IMG/VR virus record: IMGVR_UViG_3300034103_001442
Coordinates: 32,001-96,000 of that record
Source: a virus
Strand: one strand, 5' to 3'
DNA: 64,000 nucleotides
The notes below the pieces were generated by a model that made no database searches, was not told where the DNA came from, and was given only the letters and a program-made list of their open reading frames with translations. This document shows, one piece after another, positions 12,508-19,156 of the stretch; positions within the stretch are counted from its first letter, which is position 1, and every line of letters starts with the position of its first letter. A program made the translations under genes and the position numbers.

Positions 12508-13407
12508 TTAATCCTCGCTAGCAAGTTTCTTGAAGAACTCAAGATCCTCGTCATCATCACTGCTTGTGGCAGTGACTGGAGCCTCCTTCGCCTTGAATGT
12601 AGGTGCTTCAGTAGCATCCTCCGTAGCGAGTTCGGCGCGAGTGTTAGGACGTGGTGCTGAGCCATCAAGACCCAAAACCATATCCAAACGTGCCTTGAGT
12701 TCCGCATAGGACTTGAAGTGCTTCGGGTCAACGAGTTCCTTGAGGGAATACTCCTTGTTCCAAACTTCCTCAAGTTTATCGTCCTCATCGAATAGTGGTG
12801 CGGGGGAATCGAATTCGGACTTATCGTAGTTGCGGTATCCCTCAACATTACGAATTTTCAACTTGAAGTTAGCACCCTTCCAAAGATCGAAAGGATTAAC
12901 TGGCTTTTCATCCTCAAACTGAGGATACATCATATCGTTAATCTTATCGAAAATCTTTTTACCATATCTAAAGAGAAATACTTTACCCTCATTGGCAGGG
13001 TTGGATGAGTCCTTCAGCACCATAATATTTGAAACATAAGTTAGGCGACGCTTTTGCTTACGTGCGAGTTCCTTATCGGACTCAATACCGCTGTTCCAAA
13101 GTTTGCTGTTGTACTCACCAACAGGGTCTTCCTTGTTCAAAGTCGTGAGTGACTTCTCGATATACCAAAGACCGCTTGGTCCTTGGAAACCGTGATCCCA
13201 AATGCGGACAAAAGGAATGTCCTCATTGCCTGGGGCTGGAAGAAAACGGATGAGGGCAAAACCATTACCTGCCTTATCAACCGTTGGCTTCCAATACTTT
13301 TCTTCTTCTTTAGAATTATCGAATGTGTTTTTGTTTAGTTTCTCCAACTCTTTGGTGAGTTTATCGAAACTGCTTGCGCTTGAACGCTTTAGGTCAGCAA
13401 ATGACAT
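12508..13407 (-). CDS. gp32: Single-stranded DNA-binding protein gp32
   Basis: WKP.VDKAGNG.A.IRFLPA, HGFQGP.GLWYIE, YGKKIFDKI, NPFDLW.GANFKLK, NYDKSEF, acidic tail. Confidence 0.97.
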   Translation of the reverse strand: MSFADLKRSSASSFDKLTKELEKLNKNTFDNSKEEEKYWKPTVDKAGNGFALIRFLPAPGNEDIPFVRIWDHGFQGPSGLWYIEKSLTTLNKEDPVGEYNSKLWNSGIESDKELARKQKRRLTYVSNIMVLKDSSNPANEGKVFLFRYGKKIFDKINDMMYPQFEDEKPVNPFDLWKGANFKLKIRNVEGYRNYDKSEFDSPAPLFDEDDKLEEVWNKEYSLKELVDPKHFKSYAELKARLDMVLGLDGSAPRPNTRAELATEDATEAPTFKAKEAPVTATSSDDDEDLEFFKKLASED

Positions 13408-13479: not shown

Positions 13480-15048
13480 TTACTTCGTCATGATCTCGTC
13501 GCCAACAACCAGAACGTCAAGATCACTTGTATCAAATAGTTTCTTTGCGTCATCCACGTATCCAGCAATAGGTGCGCCATTCACATTGAGTGAAGTGTTT
13601 AGCACCATTGGAATACCAGTTTTGCGTCGGAAACTTTCGATCAAGTCTCGGTAAATTGCATATTGTGGCTGCTCATTCACTGTTTGAATTCGGCAAGTAC
13701 CATCAACGTGCAAAATAGGTTTGAATTGAGTCTTATCAAGAGCATCAATTACATAAAGCATATATGGACTTTCATAGTCGCAGTCAAAATATTGGCTGGT
13801 GTATTCATTCAAAATAGATGCACCAAATGGACGGTATGGTTCACGCTTTTTAACACGCTCATTCAAAATGTCCTTACCGTTTTCAACATTTGGGTTCATC
13901 AAAATAGAACGATTGCCCAACGCTCTTGGTCCAATTTCACCATTGCCTTGGTACCACGCTACTATTTTACCCTGAGCAAGAAATTCCGCGGTCTTTTCTA
14001 TAGTGGATGCTGATGGCGTGCTATCAGGTGCTTGATCACTTTGCCAATATGGGAAGTTGCTATTGTCAAACTTCGGCTGGCAGAAAAGTTTACGCAGGAA
14101 CTCAACACAACCCAAACTCAAACCGTCATCTGGACAGTGAGGTGGGATATGCATATTCTTGAAACGTTTACGTAGCGAGGTGTTCACCACGGTGTTTTGA
14201 GCAGTACCGCCCGAGTATGTAATCACATCATCTGGATTTGCATACAGTGAGAAGTAGTCAGGCATCTTGCGCTCACCAAACACATGCATCCAGTGTGATA
14301 GATTAATCAACTGCTGTCTTTCGTCGGGAACTGGAACCAACATTTGGTTGGCTTGCATTGCAATTTGAATGAACTGATTGAGGTGGCGGTAACGCAGTGG
14401 CTCAACAAACTTCATCAAATGGTTGGTCAAATCATCGGGGACATTGTGGAATGACTTGAGTGCCATCAGTTTGCCAGCAATATCAAGAACAATTCCTTCA
14501 ATGCCGATCTTTTGTCCAACCTGTTCCATGGTGACTGACAGCCCCATGTTTTCGCTACGGTCTACATACTCAACGAGTTGGTCATTCTTAAAAATACCAG
14601 AAATGCGACCATGATCACCCAAACCGTCAAGAACAAAATGGGTTGATACTGTATCAAGATCGACAAGTGGCCAACAACTCAAAGTGTGTGAGTAGTGGTG
14701 GTCAACGCGATAAACTGGGCACTTGAATTGCGACCAAAGTTCATTTTTGCTTTTGTCGATTTCAAAGTAGTTCTCATTGATTTGAACTTCACGATCCAAC
14801 TTATGAAGTCCTGGATCATTTGAAATACAGATGCCATCAAGTTCCTGTAGGTCAATACCAAAAATGTCTTTGGCATGCTGAAGTAACTCTGGAACATCAT
14901 CCTTCTTTTCTACATCGCCACCCTTGATGGATGCGGTGTTGTAGTGCTTCTTTTGGACATTGCGTTCAATTTTGGCATAGCGAACCTTGATGCCGTCTGA
15001 ATATGCAATGTTACAATCATGACCGTTACGAATACCTAAAAATTTCAT
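13480..15048 (-). CDS. Carbamoyltransferase (NodU/CmcH/TobZ family)
   Basis: HD, DHH.SH, LDG.GD, GKLMAL, SGG.AQN, DDGLSLG, E.GPRALGNRSIL, KKRE.YRPF, HVDGT.R.QTV, LNTSLN. Confidence 0.92.
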   Translation of the reverse strand: MKFLGIRNGHDCNIAYSDGIKVRYAKIERNVQKKHYNTASIKGGDVEKKDDVPELLQHAKDIFGIDLQELDGICISNDPGLHKLDREVQINENYFEIDKSKNELWSQFKCPVYRVDHHYSHTLSCWPLVDLDTVSTHFVLDGLGDHGRISGIFKNDQLVEYVDRSENMGLSVTMEQVGQKIGIEGIVLDIAGKLMALKSFHNVPDDLTNHLMKFVEPLRYRHLNQFIQIAMQANQMLVPVPDERQQLINLSHWMHVFGERKMPDYFSLYANPDDVITYSGGTAQNTVVNTSLRKRFKNMHIPPHCPDDGLSLGCVEFLRKLFCQPKFDNSNFPYWQSDQAPDSTPSASTIEKTAEFLAQGKIVAWYQGNGEIGPRALGNRSILMNPNVENGKDILNERVKKREPYRPFGASILNEYTSQYFDCDYESPYMLYVIDALDKTQFKPILHVDGTCRIQTVNEQPQYAIYRDLIESFRRKTGIPMVLNTSLNVNGAPIAGYVDDAKKLFDTSDLDVLVVGDEIMTK

Positions 15049-15063: not shown

Positions 15064-15648
15064 TCAACTGAACGTTTCTTTCAATGCCTTCTTACATTTG
15101 AAAACGTTATACTGTACGAATGGTTTATACTTCAGACACTTATTATATATGCCTGGCCAAATAATGGTGTCTTCAATTTTCTTGTTCCAATATGGAAAAA
15201 AGTTGAAGATGTCATTCAGTATGATCAGGGTTTCAATGCTTATTTCTTTACGCAAAAACATCCTGAGTAAGTGTGGATGCTGTCCATCTTTAATTATAAT
15301 GTTTTCATCAAATTTAGTCAATAACTTTTTTGTCTCATTAGAAAAAATATATGTCAATGACTCCTGCTTTTTGAGCCAGTTGTTATAAATTTCCTCAGCA
15401 TCATCACTGAATAAGTCGCCAACCCACTTCAAATCACGTTCGACAAAGTTGGATACCAAAAATTTTTCAGCATCTTTATGCTTGCTCAGTCTATAAAACT
15501 GATACTTGTCTTTGCGTCGCTCAAATGAGTCACTGGTCGCTTTGACCTTTCCCTGGTACTTGAAGTAATCGTACCCACCGTCAAAGTGATATTTGAGAGC
15601 AAGAAATTTTTTATATGCTTCAAATGGACTCATACTCAATGAAATCAT
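15064..15648 (-). CDS. gp59: Helicase loader gp59
   Basis: YK..LALK.HF...YDYFKY.GK, F..RKDKY.F, ISIETL.IL, KYKPF. Confidence 0.9.
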   Translation of the reverse strand: MISLSMSPFEAYKKFLALKYHFDGGYDYFKYQGKVKATSDSFERRKDKYQFYRLSKHKDAEKFLVSNFVERDLKWVGDLFSDDAEEIYNNWLKKQESLTYIFSNETKKLLTKFDENIIIKDGQHPHLLRMFLRKEISIETLIILNDIFNFFPYWNKKIEDTIIWPGIYNKCLKYKPFVQYNVFKCKKALKETFS

Positions 15649-15893
15649 ACAGGCAATTTAGCACGCTTTGGGAGGTAGTTCAAATTCTCATAGTCAGACT
15701 GAAGTTTTGACTTCATCTTTGGATTGCTTTTGACAATTGAGGCGGCAGTTTCAATCTCAATATTGTTTTTCTCGCAAAAGTGTACAACAGCATCCACATA
15801 TGTAATACCGAGGTCATTTACGATTTTATCAATCTCACGAATGAAATTTTCCGATGTCAGTGCTGTTTGCACTACCACTTCTTCAGTTTGCAT
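15645..15893 (-). CDS. gp33: Late transcription co-activator gp33
   Basis: F..EI..IV....YVDAVVHFCE.NNIE.ETA, K.K......LN.LP..AKLP. Confidence 0.88.
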   Translation of the reverse strand: MQTEEVVVQTALTSENFIREIDKIVNDLGITYVDAVVHFCEKNNIEIETAASIVKSNPKMKSKLQSDYENLNYLPKRAKLPV

Positions 15894-15894
15894 A

Positions 15895-16524
15895 TTACCC
15901 CTTGTAAAATAAATGATTGCCTATTTGTCTGACAAATTGTTTGGTCTTTGACCAACTAGGCTCAACATAGTCTGCATGAAAGAATGTCGCATTACCAATT
16001 ATACCGTAGTCACGTTTTAAAATCAATATGTTCTCAGCAATTTTCACGGATTCTTTCCATGATTGGTTACGTCGGACAATTTTGCCATCCTCGCAAACCC
16101 AAGAAAATTGACAAACACCCTTGACCTTTTGGTGAACAACACCACAAACTGTTCTTGGGTATTGTTTACTTTTGACACGGTTCATAGTCACTTCAGCGAC
16201 TGCGACTTTACCAGCATGCGGTTCGCCGCCAGCCTCAAAGTAAATATTTCTCGCCAAGCACTCAACTTCCTTCAGCACTGTCTTTTTCTTTTCATAAGAC
16301 AGGTTGAGAAATTCGACTTTATGATTCAACACTTCAAGTTCCGAAACAAGAAGTTCATTTGTTTCTTTTTGTGCTTCAAGTTTTTCTTGCATCCTGTCAA
16401 CTATGTTATAGGGTACAAACAGGGTGAAGAAAACTAGAGCAAAGAGTCCACCAAATCTCAAAAACAAATTATGATTTCTATCAAAATAGTTTTCAATACG
16501 ATGTAATGTGTCTACTGCATTCAT
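15895..16524 (-). CDS. Cell wall hydrolase (SleB/Hydrolase_2) with N-terminal membrane anchor
   Basis: CLARNIYFEA.GE...GK.AVA.V..NRV, P.TVCGVV.Q, CQFSW, A.FFHA.YV.P.W, IGNH.FY. Confidence 0.9.
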   Translation of the reverse strand: MNAVDTLHRIENYFDRNHNLFLRFGGLFALVFFTLFVPYNIVDRMQEKLEAQKETNELLVSELEVLNHKVEFLNLSYEKKKTVLKEVECLARNIYFEAGGEPHAGKVAVAEVTMNRVKSKQYPRTVCGVVHQKVKGVCQFSWVCEDGKIVRRNQSWKESVKIAENILILKRDYGIIGNATFFHADYVEPSWSKTKQFVRQIGNHLFYKG

Positions 16525-16555
16525 GTGTATTTTGCCTCCATTATTGCAGTTGAAA

Positions 16556-16589
16556 GAAAAGGGTGGACAGTTTTTACACTGCCACCCCT
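16556..16589 (-). terminator. Terminator after the tmRNA coding piece
   Basis: GGGTGGCAG..CTGTCCACCC hairpin followed by TTTTCTTT on the minus strand. Confidence 0.7.
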
Positions 16590-16832
16590 GACTATTCTGT
16601 TACCAAGTAGTCAACTCTGGTATTCTTATACTGCTATTAAGCAGCAAGAGCCATGTCGTAATTGCTATCGTTTGCAGTTACTATTTTGCGCTGATTAAGT
16701 CAGTCGCCTCACTGGTAGCCGTCTGGTTATTACTTGCTCCGTCGAAACTGTGCACCCCCATAGTGGTGGAGGTGGTGGGAATCGCACCCACGTCCGAAAC
16801 ACTTTTAACAGTCAGTTTACTACCATTAGTTT
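16590..16832 (-). ncRNA. ssrA: Circularly permuted (two-piece) tmRNA
   Basis: Acceptor piece first: T-arm GTGGG-TGCGATT-CCCAC, then CACCTCCACCA ending at 16764. A 4-nt spacer CTAT follows. The coding piece starts GGGGGTG at 16759 (7-bp acceptor stem with G3.U70). Tag frame 16675-16637 reads ANDSNYDMALAA*. Outer ends are approximate. Confidence 0.92.
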
Positions 16833-16846
16833 GGTATTTATTTCAA

Positions 16847-17413
16847 TTAAAAAGGCGCATCCTCTTCACCCTTGAGCCAATTGAGAATTGTCTTTGGTGA
16901 AGTTTCGCCATATGGATCAGTTGGGCAGTTGTCCTTTTTGCCAGGCTCAATGAACCACTTTTCAATCTTACCGTTGTCAGCAACCACGGCATAACGCCAT
17001 GAGCGGTATCCAAAACCAAGGTTGTCCTTATCAACTAGCATTCGCATTTTGCTGGTGAAGTTACCACTGCCATCAGGAATGACTTTGACATTTTGAATGT
17101 TCTGAGCCTTTGCCCAAGCATTCATAACGAAAGCATCATTGACTGATACGCAATAAATCTCATCAACACCCTGCGCATTGAACTCTTCATACATTTCCTC
17201 AAACCCAGGCAACTGATAGGTTGAGCAGGTTGGGGTGAATGCACCAGGCAATGAGAAAACAACTACACGTTTGCCACCGAAATAATCATAGGATGAAACA
17301 TCCTCCCAGCGGTATGGGTTTGGTCCACCAACTGATTCATCGCGCACTCGAGTCTTAAAGACTACAGCAGGCAAAACCGTAGGCAAATCTTCTTCAAAAT
17401 TATCATCAAACAT
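16847..17413 (-). CDS. Peroxiredoxin (Prx5/redoxin type)
   Basis: VVVFSLPGAFTPTCS, YCVSVNDAFVMNAW, IPDGSG.FT, LGFG.RSWRYA. Confidence 0.93.
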   Translation of the reverse strand: MFDDNFEEDLPTVLPAVVFKTRVRDESVGGPNPYRWEDVSSYDYFGGKRVVVFSLPGAFTPTCSTYQLPGFEEMYEEFNAQGVDEIYCVSVNDAFVMNAWAKAQNIQNVKVIPDGSGNFTSKMRMLVDKDNLGFGYRSWRYAVVADNGKIEKWFIEPGKKDNCPTDPYGETSPKTILNWLKGEEDAPF

Positions 17414-17990
17414 TTTCTTCCTCCATAAGAATTTTTTCATAAATTTCCTTCCAATTCCTGACCAGTGGGATCAGGTTGTCAATATAATGCATGTTGTGTT
17501 CGTGTTCCATTAGGATTGAATTCAACCCAATATCAGAACCAACCACAGCATTTTCGATCTTATCTTCAATCCAGTACAACCCCGAATCACGATAGGGTTC
17601 AAGTACCTTATCCTTATCAGCGCCAGTGTCAAGACAAATCACTGACTCGATTGCACTACCAAACAACTTGATCAAATTCTTTTCGCGCAGTCGCTTGGCA
17701 TAAGGGTCAAGGCTCAGTGAAGTGATTACGCGAAAAACGTAACCGTGCTCTTCGTGAAGTCGCTTGACGTAATACATGGCATCACGGTGTGGGGGTAAAA
17801 ACCCAATCGCCGCAGACTCATTAAACTGCCTGATCAGTTTTTTAGCGTTATCAATACCGTAACGTTCTCCAATGTTGTAAGCACTAGTGTCTACAACCTT
17901 GTGACCATGAGTCTCCATCCAACATTCAAATGCAAACTCCCAATTGAGTAGCACACCATCACAATCTGTCAATATCAATTTACTATTCAT
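17406..17990 (-). CDS. HAD-family phosphatase / 5'-nucleotidase (T4 30.2-like)
   Basis: LTDCDGVLL.W, ITSL, WIEDK..NA..G. Confidence 0.8.
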   Translation of the reverse strand: MNSKLILTDCDGVLLNWEFAFECWMETHGHKVVDTSAYNIGERYGIDNAKKLIRQFNESAAIGFLPPHRDAMYYVKRLHEEHGYVFRVITSLSLDPYAKRLREKNLIKLFGSAIESVICLDTGADKDKVLEPYRDSGLYWIEDKIENAVVGSDIGLNSILMEHEHNMHYIDNLIPLVRNWKEIYEKILMEEENV

Positions 17991-17996
17991 AATACG

Positions 17997-18025
17997 ATAT
18001 TACGGCATTTCAGAAATAAAGTCAA
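17997..18025 (-). promoter_or_regulatory. Sigma70-type early promoter, leaderless
   Basis: TTGACT-17 nt (TTATTTCTGAAA core)-TAATAT, then 6 nt to ATG at 17990. Confidence 0.75.
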
Positions 18026-19041
18026 GTGGTAAAAACTCTATTGTGAGTGTCGGTGCATCTTATGAACTCAACCTTGTCTGCAAATTGAGAAAGGTTGGCT
18101 GCACCTACGTAAGTGCATGCGCTTCTGAGCCCTCCGAGCAAGTCTCTGACCGTATTGGACACTGGTCCACGATAAGGTATGGTGACGGTTCTGCCCTCGC
18201 TACTACGGTAATCGGCAACGCCGCCATTGTGTTTGTTCATTGCGGTATCACTGCTCATACCGTAAAACATCACTTTACCATCAATGGGTTTCCTACAACC
18301 CTCATCATGACCAGCGAGCATACCGCCAAGCATTACAAAGTCGGCACCTGCGCCAAATGCTTTAGCAACATCGCCAGGAGAAGTGCAGCCGCCATCAGCA
18401 ATGATATGACCGCCCAAAACGTGAGCAGCATGAGCGCATTCGAGTACTGCTGACAATTGCGGGTAGCCCACTCCAGTTTGTAGACGAGTAGTGCACACAC
18501 TACCAGGACCAATACCAACTTTAACAATATCAACGCCATTCTTAATTAACTCCATTGTCATATCACCAGTGACAACGTTACCCGCAATGAGCGTGGTGGT
18601 TGGAAATTGAGTCCGCAAAATCCGAATTGTATCAATAAATGAATCCGTGTAACCATTAGCAACATCAAGGCAAATATATTGAGGTATGGATGCCTTGAAA
18701 ACTCTAGTCAGTTTTATCAGGTCATTATTATTAGTGCCAATTGAAATCGCAGAATTTGGTTTGGGTGATCTGAAATGACGAATCAATTCTTCTTCGCTGT
18801 AATGCTTAATCAAACAAGTGAACATGTTGTATTTGTCAAGTTCACTTTCCATATTAAAAGTGCCCACCCCATCCATGTTTGCTGCCATGATTGGAGTGCC
18901 AGTGTATTTTTTCTTTGAGTGCTTGAAGGTGTAATTTACATTCAAGTCAACTTCTGATCGTGACTTGAGTTTTGATCGTTTTGGCACAATCAAAACATCA
19001 CTGTAATTGTATTTCAATTCTTCAATTATTTTCATATACAT
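18022..19041 (-). CDS. guaC: GMP reductase
   Basis: PKRS.L.SRSEV, PIMAANMDGVGTF, CLDVANGY, AGNVVT, KVGIGPGSVCTTR, FYGMSS, YRSSEG, LGGLRSACTYVGA. Confidence 0.96.
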   Translation of the reverse strand: MYMKIIEELKYNYSDVLIVPKRSKLKSRSEVDLNVNYTFKHSKKKYTGTPIMAANMDGVGTFNMESELDKYNMFTCLIKHYSEEELIRHFRSPKPNSAISIGTNNNDLIKLTRVFKASIPQYICLDVANGYTDSFIDTIRILRTQFPTTTLIAGNVVTGDMTMELIKNGVDIVKVGIGPGSVCTTRLQTGVGYPQLSAVLECAHAAHVLGGHIIADGGCTSPGDVAKAFGAGADFVMLGGMLAGHDEGCRKPIDGKVMFYGMSSDTAMNKHNGGVADYRSSEGRTVTIPYRGPVSNTVRDLLGGLRSACTYVGAANLSQFADKVEFIRCTDTHNRVFTT

Positions 19042-19156
19042 CCCAAAAAGAATTCGGTTTATCTCTGTTGGTGCGCATCCAACTTGATCCTACAAAACTA
19101 CCATCGCTGTGCGACAAACTCTACACCGAAAGGTTGAGCGGTAGGTTTTTATTTAG

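What the first reader, a model, noticed from the sequence alone, without database searches (positions are those of the whole stretch)
16590..16832. Phage-encoded circularly permuted two-piece tmRNA with only a 4-nt spacer
Seen: the 3' acceptor half (T-arm plus CACCTCCACCA) precedes the 5' half (GGGGGTG...), separated only by CTAT. It has the G3.U70 alanine determinant, inter-piece pairings CGGAGCA/TGTTTCG and TGGTAGT/GCTACCA, tag ANDSNYDMALAA, and a terminator. Established: permuted tmRNAs occur in Alphaproteobacteria, some Betaproteobacteria and some cyanobacteria, and a C-terminal LAA targets ClpXP. Inference: the phage supplies its own ribosome-rescue RNA, possibly against host RNase defences. 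No smpB is in the window. Standard tRNA scans would easily miss it.
Basis: partly seen in the sequence, partly recalled or inferred. Interest (0 to 1): 0.75.

Follow-up and report, generated by a model that had tools for sequence, protein, structure and literature searches.

The report
Phage two-piece tmRNA, short spacer
An uncultured freshwater T4-like phage carries a real, intact gene for a two-piece ribosome-rescue RNA (tmRNA) with only four bases between its halves, but phage genes of this kind are already published and the same short spacer is normal in one family of bacteria, so it is a good new example and not a new kind of thing.

Summary
On the minus strand at about 16552-16830 lies a circularly permuted tmRNA gene. 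ARAGORN gives the tag ANDSNYDMALAA. Rfam scores are 147.7 bits (tmRNA_permuted) and 121.1 bits (beta_tmRNA). CCA (16766-16764) and G1 (16759) are separated only by CUAU.

It is truly phage-borne. The record is a 151.7-kb T4-like virus contig, and the gene sits between a peroxiredoxin gene and a hydrolase-gp33-gp59-gp32 block. An independent contig shows the same arrangement.

It is not new in kind. Buchholz et al. 2022 (PMC9004378) reported two-piece tmRNAs in 53 phage genomes, and phage Melnitz has one just upstream of gp33. Here, 92 of 117 viral tmRNA loci belong to related T4-like phages. The 4-nt spacer is not exceptional either: 83 cellular species, almost all Rhodocyclaceae and relatives, have exactly 4 nt, and so do 11 other viral contigs.

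The window's gene is beta-type. It groups as sister to those cellular genes, while most related phages carry alpha-type genes at the same locus.

No smpB was found in the phage record. The likely mechanism is late transcription, RNase P cleavage at G1, trimming of four bases, alanylation, and trans-translation with host SmpB. Processing and activity are untested.

An earlier first-reader note of this scan describes this same stretch.

The parts
16835..16842 (-). T4-type late-promoter-like motif AATAAATA (7 of 8 of TATAAATA). It overlaps the end of the peroxiredoxin gene and ends 9 nt before the outer helix.
   Evidence: Read. Relatives carry TATAAATA (L117), ATAAATA (L077, L040) or TATAAGTA (L005) at the same place. 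Genome-wide, ATAAATA occurs 38 times on the gene-rich minus strand and 10 times on the plus strand. This is a prediction only.
16764..16830 (-). Acceptor piece (3' piece of the mature tmRNA, encoded first). It holds the outer P2 strand UGGUAGU 16825-16819, the inner P2 strand UGUUUCG 16801-16795, the T-arm 16791-16775 (loop UGCGAUU), the acceptor 3' strand 16774-16768, the discriminator A 16767 and an encoded CCA 16766-16764.
   Evidence: The 5' end is inferred from the promoter motif and has not been mapped.
16760..16763 (-). Intervening sequence CUAU (4 nt) between CCA and G1, absent from the mature RNA.
   Evidence: The Rfam models expect about 27-29 nt here. 83 cellular species and 11 other viral contigs also have 4 nt.
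16552..16759 (-). Coding piece (5' piece of the mature tmRNA). It holds the acceptor 5' strand GGGGGUG 16759-16753, the D-loop analogue cAGUUUCGAC, the P2 3' strands 16741-16735 and 16719-16713, a PK1-like GAGGCGACUGACUUAAUCAGCGC, the tag ORF, a 3' hairpin and the terminator.
16634..16675 (-). Tag reading frame: resume codon GCA at 16675-16673, ANDSNYDMALAA, then stops UAA UAG at 16639-16634.
   Evidence: ARAGORN; translation.
16552..16588 (-). Intrinsic terminator: hairpin GGGGUGGCAGUG..CUGUCCACCC at 16588-16561, followed by UUUUCUUUC.
   Evidence: RNAfold gives -21.9 kcal/mol for the region. It matches the 3' terminal hairpin of the RF01850 model.
16847..17440 (-). Upstream neighbour: peroxiredoxin (Redoxin/AhpC-TSA).
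   Evidence: Pfam E 5e-27; phrog_2281 E 2e-68.
15895..16524 (-). Downstream neighbour: cell-wall hydrolase (Hydrolase_2, endolysin-like).
15645..15893 (-). gp33-like late-transcription coactivator (82 aa).
   Evidence: phrog_254 E 4.7e-16.
15064..15648 (-). gp59 helicase loader.
   Evidence: Pfam T4_Gp59_N and T4_Gp59_C.
12508..13407 (-). gp32 single-stranded-DNA-binding protein.
   Evidence: Pfam gp32 E 1.7e-42.

Best explanation
This is a functional ssrA gene carried by a lytic, T4-like freshwater phage. It encodes a beta-type, circularly permuted (two-piece) tmRNA.

Inferred steps:
1. It is transcribed as one precursor of about 275 nt, probably from a T4-type late promoter directly upstream, and ends at its own intrinsic terminator.
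2. Host RNase P cuts 5' of G1 (16759). That single cut separates the two pieces.
3. Host 3' exonucleases then remove the four-base trailer CUAU from the acceptor piece to expose the encoded CCA.
4. The two pieces stay together through the acceptor stem and the two P2 helices.
5. Host AlaRS charges the RNA (G3.U70, discriminator A).
6. With host SmpB and EF-Tu it enters stalled ribosomes. It adds ANDSNYDMALAA to the nascent chain for degradation by host proteases and frees the ribosome.
7. The likely benefit, together with the phage's 22 tRNAs, is to keep the ribosome pool available while mRNAs are being degraded during infection.

Shown here: the gene's identity, its intactness, its conservation with compensatory changes, its phage location, and the absence of smpB from the record.

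Inferred: promoter use, processing, charging, tagging and the benefit.
For: Identity: ARAGORN and two Rfam covariance models score far above threshold.

Structure: the minimum-energy fold of the precursor and of the two pieces reproduces the acceptor stem, the T-arm and both P2 helices. RNAalifold on 19 viral and cellular relatives finds compensatory changes in 8 of 19 pairs, in the T-arm and inner P2. The outer helix is kept with quite different sequences: GGUAG/CUACC here and ACAGU/AUUGU in L104.

Phage location: the record is a 151.7-kb virus contig, 87% complete. Its neighbours are gp32, gp59, gp33, baseplate and RNR genes.
- L040, from another sample, has a 99.4% identical tmRNA and the same gene order.
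- L097 is 85% identical, and its gp32 is 60% identical.
- L005, L007 and L117 also have the tmRNA within about 3 kb of gp32 or gp59.
- 92 of 117 viral tmRNA loci share at least 2 proteins with this phage.

Selection: relatives keep an open tag frame that ends in AA although the tag sequences differ.

Spacer: a 4-nt spacer works in cells. It is the sole ssrA of Dechloromonas sp. H13 (230.9 bits) and is present in 83 species. The phage's own tRNA genes are 1-7 nt apart, so short spacers are routinely resolved in this host.

Cofactor: no SmpB in the record or in 5 larger related records.

RNA libraries: two metatranscriptome contigs from different studies cover both pieces with 0-1 differences.

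Literature: phage two-piece tmRNAs and their proposed roles are described in PMC9004378.
Against: - No direct evidence of processing, charging or tagging. The RNA-library contigs bridge the spacer, so they show the precursor form or contaminating DNA, not mature pieces.
- One of those contigs reaches 16838, upstream of the predicted start. Read-through from the peroxiredoxin gene is therefore possible.
- The promoter is a 7-of-8 motif match only.
- The host is unknown, so compatibility with its SmpB, AlaRS and proteases is assumed.
- The record is 87% complete, so a phage smpB in the missing part is not excluded.
Confidence: 0.85

Rival explanations
1. The RNA mainly interferes with host trans-translation instead of supporting it. 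It would compete for host SmpB, or redirect tagging so that host proteins are marked for recycling, as suggested for the TLD-only RNA of mycobacteriophage DS6A and as one option for Melnitz.
For: No phage smpB was found, so the RNA must draw on the host pool. DS6A-like molecules inhibit tmRNA (PMC4131195, PMC11915505). Buchholz et al. raise selective tagging of host proteins (PMC9004378). The tag differs from the ANDERFALAA of the nearest cellular relatives.
Against: The gene keeps a complete mRNA-like domain, a resume codon, an open tag frame with a standard degradation ending (ALAA) and two stops. Relatives keep these as well. A pure decoy would not need any of them. A late promoter fits poorly with early takeover of the host.
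Confidence: 0.1
2. It is a passively carried piece of host DNA, such as a remnant of integration at or excision from a host ssrA attachment site, with no function for the phage.
For: tmRNA genes are common integration sites, and fragments of them occur in prophages (PMC9004378, PMC4383910). The gene groups as sister to cellular Rhodocyclaceae-type tmRNAs.
Against: - The gene is full length, not a fragment.
- It lies inside the replication and late-transcription module of a T4-like phage.
- It keeps the same place in phages whose gp32 is only 51-60% identical.
- It shows compensatory substitutions and a kept tag frame.
- It has a phage-type promoter motif in place of the TTGATT-17-TAGAAT seen at the cellular locus L143.
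Confidence: 0.03
3. Assembly or binning artefact: a bacterial ssrA locus was joined to phage DNA in a chimeric contig.
For: The record is a metagenome assembly. The tmRNA is GC-richer (44-48%) than the genome (40.9%).
Against: The same junctions on both sides recur in L040 from another sample. Contigs in metagenomes from at least 9 studies hold 81-97% of the words of the 601-nt stretch that spans both junctions. The 322-nt gap between the phage genes is filled by the tmRNA together with its promoter-like motif and terminator.
Confidence: 0.01

Closest known systems
Two-piece ssrA of Methylophilales phage Melnitz and of pelagimyophages and Melnitz-like viral contigs (Buchholz et al. 2022, PMC9004378)
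   Same: A permuted tmRNA gene in an aquatic T4-like myophage, next to the late-transcription coactivator gp33 and the gp59/gp32 module. No phage smpB was found here. 92 of 117 viral tmRNA loci found here belong to this wider phage group.
   Different: Melnitz's gene is alpha-type, was placed after an early promoter, and carries a predicted glutamine riboswitch. The window's gene fits the beta model best (121 bits), has a late-promoter-like motif, shows no glnA RNA match at Rfam gathering level, has a hydrolase gene between it and gp33, and has a 4-nt spacer where this group's usual length is about 28 nt.
Cellular beta-type two-piece tmRNA (Rfam RF01850) of Rhodocyclaceae and relatives: Dechloromonas, Azonexus, Accumulibacter, Azospira, Sulfuritalea, Sterolibacterium
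   Same: The same architecture and the same 4-nt spacer (83 species, one with the identical CTAT). A nearly identical PK1 stretch, GAGGCGAC.GAC.UAAUC.GCGCAAA. 75-78% identity over 120-147 nt. The window's group is sister to these genes in the tree, with support 88/85.
   Different: The cellular genes have T-loop UUC with D-loop GG, 10-residue tags such as ANDERFALAA, GC around 63% and sigma-70-type promoters. The phage gene has UGC with AG, a 12-residue tag, lower GC and a late-type motif.
One-piece tmRNAs of mycobacteriophages (Bxz1 group) and Bacillus phage G; TLD-only RNA of phage DS6A (PMC4131195)
   Same: A phage-borne ssrA that depends on host cofactors.
   Different: Those are standard one-piece genes or lack a tag frame. 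This one is permuted and complete.

Membership tests
Permuted (two-piece) tmRNA, Rfam RF04321 | Score above the curated threshold of the covariance model | tested here: met
   147.7 bits against a gathering score of 47, full model 1-213.
Permuted (two-piece) tmRNA, Rfam RF04321 | tRNA-like domain: 7-bp acceptor stem with G3.U70, T-arm, discriminator A, CCA | tested here: met
   GGGGGUG/CACCUCC, G3.U70, T-arm 16791-16775, A 16767, encoded CCA 16766-16764.
Permuted (two-piece) tmRNA, Rfam RF04321 | Circular permutation: the acceptor (3') piece is encoded upstream of the coding (5') piece, with an intervening sequence between CCA and G1 | tested here: met
   ARAGORN flags it as permuted (tmRNA*). 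The spacer is CUAU at 16763-16760.
Permuted (two-piece) tmRNA, Rfam RF04321 | Tag reading frame with an alanine resume codon and a hydrophobic C-terminus ending in AA | tested here: met
   GCA resume codon; ANDSNYDMALAA; two stops.
Permuted (two-piece) tmRNA, Rfam RF04321 | Inter-piece helices kept by compensatory change | tested here: met
   RNAalifold: 8 of 19 pairs show changes on both sides, in the inner P2 and the T-arm. The outer helix is kept with different sequences. The duplex-energy control is only weakly significant.
Permuted (two-piece) tmRNA, Rfam RF04321 | Precursor is cleaved into two RNAs that stay base-paired | not testable with these tools
   Only assembled contigs of RNA libraries were available. 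They bridge the spacer and cannot show ends.
Permuted (two-piece) tmRNA, Rfam RF04321 | Works with SmpB; alanylation and tagging activity | not testable with these tools
   No SmpB in the phage record or in 5 related records. Use of host SmpB is inferred.
Beta-type two-piece tmRNA, Rfam RF01850 | Best-scoring lineage model, over its full length including the 3' hairpins | tested here: met
   121.1 bits against a gathering score of 84, model 1-331. It is the clan winner over the alpha and cyano models.
Beta-type two-piece tmRNA, Rfam RF01850 | Groups with cellular betaproteobacterial tmRNAs | tested here: inconclusive
   Sister to the Rhodocyclaceae/Azonexaceae clade with support 88/85. Only short-spacer cellular genes were sampled. 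The T-loop/D-loop pair is of the alpha type.
Melnitz-type phage ssrA (PMC9004378) | Sits in a T4-like phage beside the gp33 coactivator | tested here: met
   The order is tmRNA-hydrolase-gp33-gp59.
Melnitz-type phage ssrA (PMC9004378) | Alpha-type sequence and a glutamine riboswitch in the 3' domain | tested here: not met
   The beta model fits best, and no glnA RNA family match appears in the window at gathering level.

The most novel reading that the evidence does not exclude
Aquatic T4-like phages keep a fixed 'tmRNA slot' beside gp33/gp59/gp32 in which whole ssrA cassettes have been exchanged to match the host lineage.

Most relatives hold an alpha-type gene with a spacer of about 28 nt. 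This phage and two relatives hold a Rhodocyclaceae-like beta-type gene, complete with that family's 4-nt spacer but with an alpha-type A18/G55 tertiary pair.

That would make it either a mosaic formed by recombination between the resident phage gene and a host ssrA, or a gene from an unsampled low-GC freshwater beta lineage. If so, the tmRNA type would be a usable host marker for uncultured phages.
Probability: 0.3. Interest if true: 0.45.

Novelty: new member of a known kind. Interest (0 to 1): 0.3.

Why it matters
It adds a well-documented freshwater, beta-type example to the published set of phage two-piece tmRNAs. The 4-nt spacer means a single RNase P cut plus trimming of four bases would yield both mature pieces. 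Phages with a shared replication module carry tmRNAs of different bacterial lineage types at the same locus, which may help assign hosts to uncultured phages. It does not change what is known about trans-translation or about phage auxiliary RNA genes.

Tried and rejected
- blastn of the gene against 50,697 isolate phage records found nothing at E 1e-5. Comparison with Melnitz therefore rests on the paper and on gene order, not on an alignment.
- The founding papers on two-piece tmRNA (Keiler 2000; Sharkady and Williams 2004) are not held. The supplement of the 2025 tmRNA database paper gave no spacer lengths. Spacer lengths were measured directly instead.
- A cognate versus non-cognate duplex-energy test of the outer helix was weak: medians -10.4 against -9.4 kcal/mol, p 6e-4, with some failed duplexes. 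I do not lean on it.
- Metatranscriptome contigs cannot show RNA ends. Uncovered stretches, and the short, high-depth pieces over the T-arm that come from other organisms' tmRNAs, are not evidence.
- I first suspected L143 (a 33% GC locus in a MAG labelled 'Dechloromonas aromatica') of being a misbinned phage contig. It is the only strong tmRNA of that 1.8-Mb genome and has a sigma-70-type promoter, so it is probably cellular.
- I first took the T-loop UGC plus D-loop AG pairing (50 viral sequences against 0 of 70 Rhodocyclaceae) to be phage-specific. The alphaproteobacterial Rfam consensus has the same G55 and AG, so it is not.
- The split coordinates were off by 3 nt. This was corrected.
- The genome search gave no taxon names for genomes reached through loci. 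Named low-GC beta families could therefore not be surveyed, and the host stays unassigned.

Full report
**What is there**

Read on the minus strand, window 16830-16552 is a complete, circularly permuted tmRNA gene.
- ARAGORN calls it at 16546-16856(-), marks it as permuted, and gives the tag ANDSNYDMALAA followed by two stops.
- Rfam gives 147.7 bits for tmRNA_permuted (RF04321, threshold 47, E 3.4e-29) and 121.1 bits for beta_tmRNA (RF01850, threshold 84, E 2.5e-36). Both matches run over the full model.

Read directly, the features are:
- outer P2 strand UGGUAGU 16825-16819
- inner P2 strand UGUUUCG 16801-16795
- T-arm 16791-16775
- acceptor 3' strand CACCUCC 16774-16768
- discriminator A 16767
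- encoded CCA 16766-16764
- spacer CUAU 16763-16760
- GGGGGUG 16759-16753, which gives G3.U70
- partner strands CGGAGCA 16741-16735 and GCUACCA 16719-16713
- tag frame 16675-16640, with UAA UAG at 16639-16634
- terminator hairpin 16588-16561, followed by a U run

The minimum-energy folds of the precursor and of the two separated pieces reproduce all of these helices. My first split was 3 nt off and was corrected. Its span merely misses the terminator.

**Is it really in a phage?**

Yes. The window is bases 32001-96000 of a 151,740-bp IMG/VR virus record rated 87% complete. The genome has 40.9% GC and 22 tRNA genes.

The neighbours are T4-type genes: gp32, gp59, a gp33-like late coactivator, baseplate wedge, tail proteins and RNR. 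Along the minus strand the order is peroxiredoxin, tmRNA, cell-wall hydrolase, gp33, gp59, carbamoyltransferase, gp32. The tmRNA, with its promoter-like motif and terminator, fills the 322-nt gap between the two flanking genes.

Several results exclude a chimeric assembly or a one-off capture:
- A contig from another sample (L040) has a 99.4% identical tmRNA and the same gene order.
- L097 is 85% identical in the tmRNA, with gp32 60% identical.
- L005, L007 and L117 have a tmRNA within about 3 kb of gp32 or gp59, although their gp32 is only 51-55% identical.
- Contigs in lake and freshwater metagenomes of at least 9 studies hold 81-97% of the sampled words of the 601-nt stretch across both junctions.

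Among isolates, the closest gp32 is that of the cyanomyophages, at about 54%.

**How common is this?**

- ARAGORN confirms 94 of these 117 loci.
- 92 of the 117 share at least two proteins with this phage: gp59 in 62 and gp32 in 38. Their GC is 29-46%.

A permuted tmRNA beside the gp33/gp59/gp32 module is thus a widespread trait of aquatic T4-like phages. This agrees with Buchholz et al. 2022 (PMC9004378). That paper found two-piece tmRNAs in 53 phage genomes, 50 of them aquatic, and in 17 of 47 Melnitz-like contigs. [quoted passage not shown] The kind of element is therefore published.

**The 4-nt spacer**

In the viral set, spacer lengths run from 1 to 30 nt with a mode of 28. Eleven other loci have 4 nt and three have 1 nt.

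A scan of one genome per species (185,579 species) with the spacer limited to 0-8 nt returned 88 cellular loci. Almost all are Rhodocyclaceae and relatives: Accumulibacter (including the complete genome NC_013194.1), Dechloromonas, Azonexus, Azospira, Propionivibrio, Sulfuritalea, Sterolibacterium and Methyloversatilis.
- 83 of them have exactly 4 nt, and one has the identical CTAT.
- ARAGORN confirms 83 of the 88.
- In Dechloromonas sp. H13 this gene is the genome's only ssrA, at 230.9 bits.
- In a 201-genome sample of that family, all 22 pattern matches have 3-4 nt.

A 4-nt spacer is therefore an ordinary, working state in one cellular lineage. The phage's own tRNA genes are spaced 1-7 nt apart. 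The same processing logic, an RNase P cut plus short 3' trimming, applies to both.

**Which lineage?**

The window, L040, L097, L002, L110 and L117 fit the beta model best. Most related phage loci (GC 30-35%, spacer about 28 nt) fit the alpha model best, and two 1-nt-spacer loci fit the cyano model.

Outside its two close viral relatives, the window's best matches are Dechloromonas, Azonexus and Accumulibacter, at 75-78% over 120-147 nt. It shares their PK1 stretch almost letter for letter.

In a tree of 89 core sequences, window+L040+L097 (support 100/99) is sister to the cellular 4-nt clade (support 88/85) and lies away from the alpha-type phage bulk. There are caveats: the cellular sample holds only short-spacer genes, the alignment is short, and the bootstrap had not settled.

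One odd point remains. The T-loop is UGCGAUU and the D-loop analogue reads AG. That pair is found in 50 distinct viral sequences and in none of 70 Rhodocyclaceae, yet it is the consensus of the alphaproteobacterial model. The gene may be a mosaic, or it may come from an unsampled beta lineage.

**Function and mechanism**

Evidence for selection on function:
- RNAalifold finds compensatory changes in 8 of 19 pairs.
- The outer helix is kept with unrelated sequences in different relatives.
- The tag frame stays open and ends in AA, although the tag sequences differ.

A late-promoter-like AATAAATA ends 9 nt before the outer helix. L117 has TATAAATA, L077 ATAAATA and L005 TATAAGTA at the same place, whereas the cellular locus L143 has TTGATT-17-TAGAAT. 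An earlier first-reader note of this scan on the same stretch also mentions a late promoter. I had seen the motif independently, and I tested only its conservation.

No SmpB is found in the record or in five larger related records, so host SmpB is presumably used.

Two RNA-library contigs from different studies (X17 record 11 and X18 record 14) cover both pieces with 0-1 differences. That fits transcription, but it shows the unprocessed form at best and does not exclude contaminating DNA.

The proposed chain is late transcription, RNase P cut at G1, removal of CUAU, alanylation, then rescue and tagging with host factors. This follows from established tmRNA biology and is not shown here.

**Verdict**

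The finding is real, correctly described and genuinely phage-encoded. It is a new member of a known kind. The features offered as remarkable, a phage origin and a 4-nt spacer, both have clear precedents.

Noticed in passing
window 19099-19143 (-): An Rfam COG2908 RNA motif (RF02939; 67.4 bits against a gathering score of 58.7; E 4.7e-17) lies directly upstream of a GMP reductase/IMPDH-family gene (18022-19041, -). From memory, this cis-regulatory motif is described from Betaproteobacteria upstream of other genes. In a phage, before a nucleotide-metabolism gene, it is unexpected, and it may be a host clue.
   Followed up: no
window 16780-16786 and 16747-16748 (-); loci L002-L118: The T-loop UGC (G at tRNA position 55) goes together with AG in place of GG in the D-loop analogue. 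The counts are 50 distinct viral sequences with UGC+AG, 91 sequences with UUC+GG, and 1 mixed case. This looks like covariation of the 18-55 tertiary contact. It is the consensus state of the alphaproteobacterial Rfam model but sits here in a beta-type tmRNA.
   Followed up: partly
G000:C1:111350-116205 (outside the window): A cluster of 22 tRNA genes on the minus strand, many only 1-7 nt apart.
   Followed up: no
L143 (G002:C30:16025-16337): A MAG labelled Dechloromonas aromatica is only 1.8 Mb. Its single beta-type tmRNA (186.9 bits, 4-nt spacer CAGC, sigma-70-like promoter) lies in a stretch of 33% GC. The species label looks doubtful. It may be a small-genome, low-GC relative and a candidate host lineage.
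   Followed up: partly
L201: A contig of a MAG labelled Mycobacteriaceae holds a Rhodocyclaceae-type permuted tmRNA that nests among Azonexaceae in the tree. It is probably a misbinned contig.
   Followed up: no
L046 and L072: Viral contigs with a cyano-type permuted tmRNA whose spacer is a single base (A), shorter than the one under study.
   Followed up: partly
L035 3926-3998 (-) and L070: In high-GC viral contigs unrelated to T4, a tRNA gene lies immediately upstream of a 4-nt-spacer permuted tmRNA, with an unusually long insertion in the pseudoknot region.
   Followed up: no
window 13480-15048 (-), 16847-17440 (-), 18022-19041 (-): Auxiliary genes are interleaved with the replication module: a carbamoyltransferase between gp59 and gp32, a peroxiredoxin, and a GMP reductase-like dehydrogenase.
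   Followed up: no
window 16684: RNA-library contigs of four studies all stop matching at 16684, just upstream of the tag frame, and continue with different letters. Co-occurring relatives seem to differ in the region around the resume codon.
   Followed up: no
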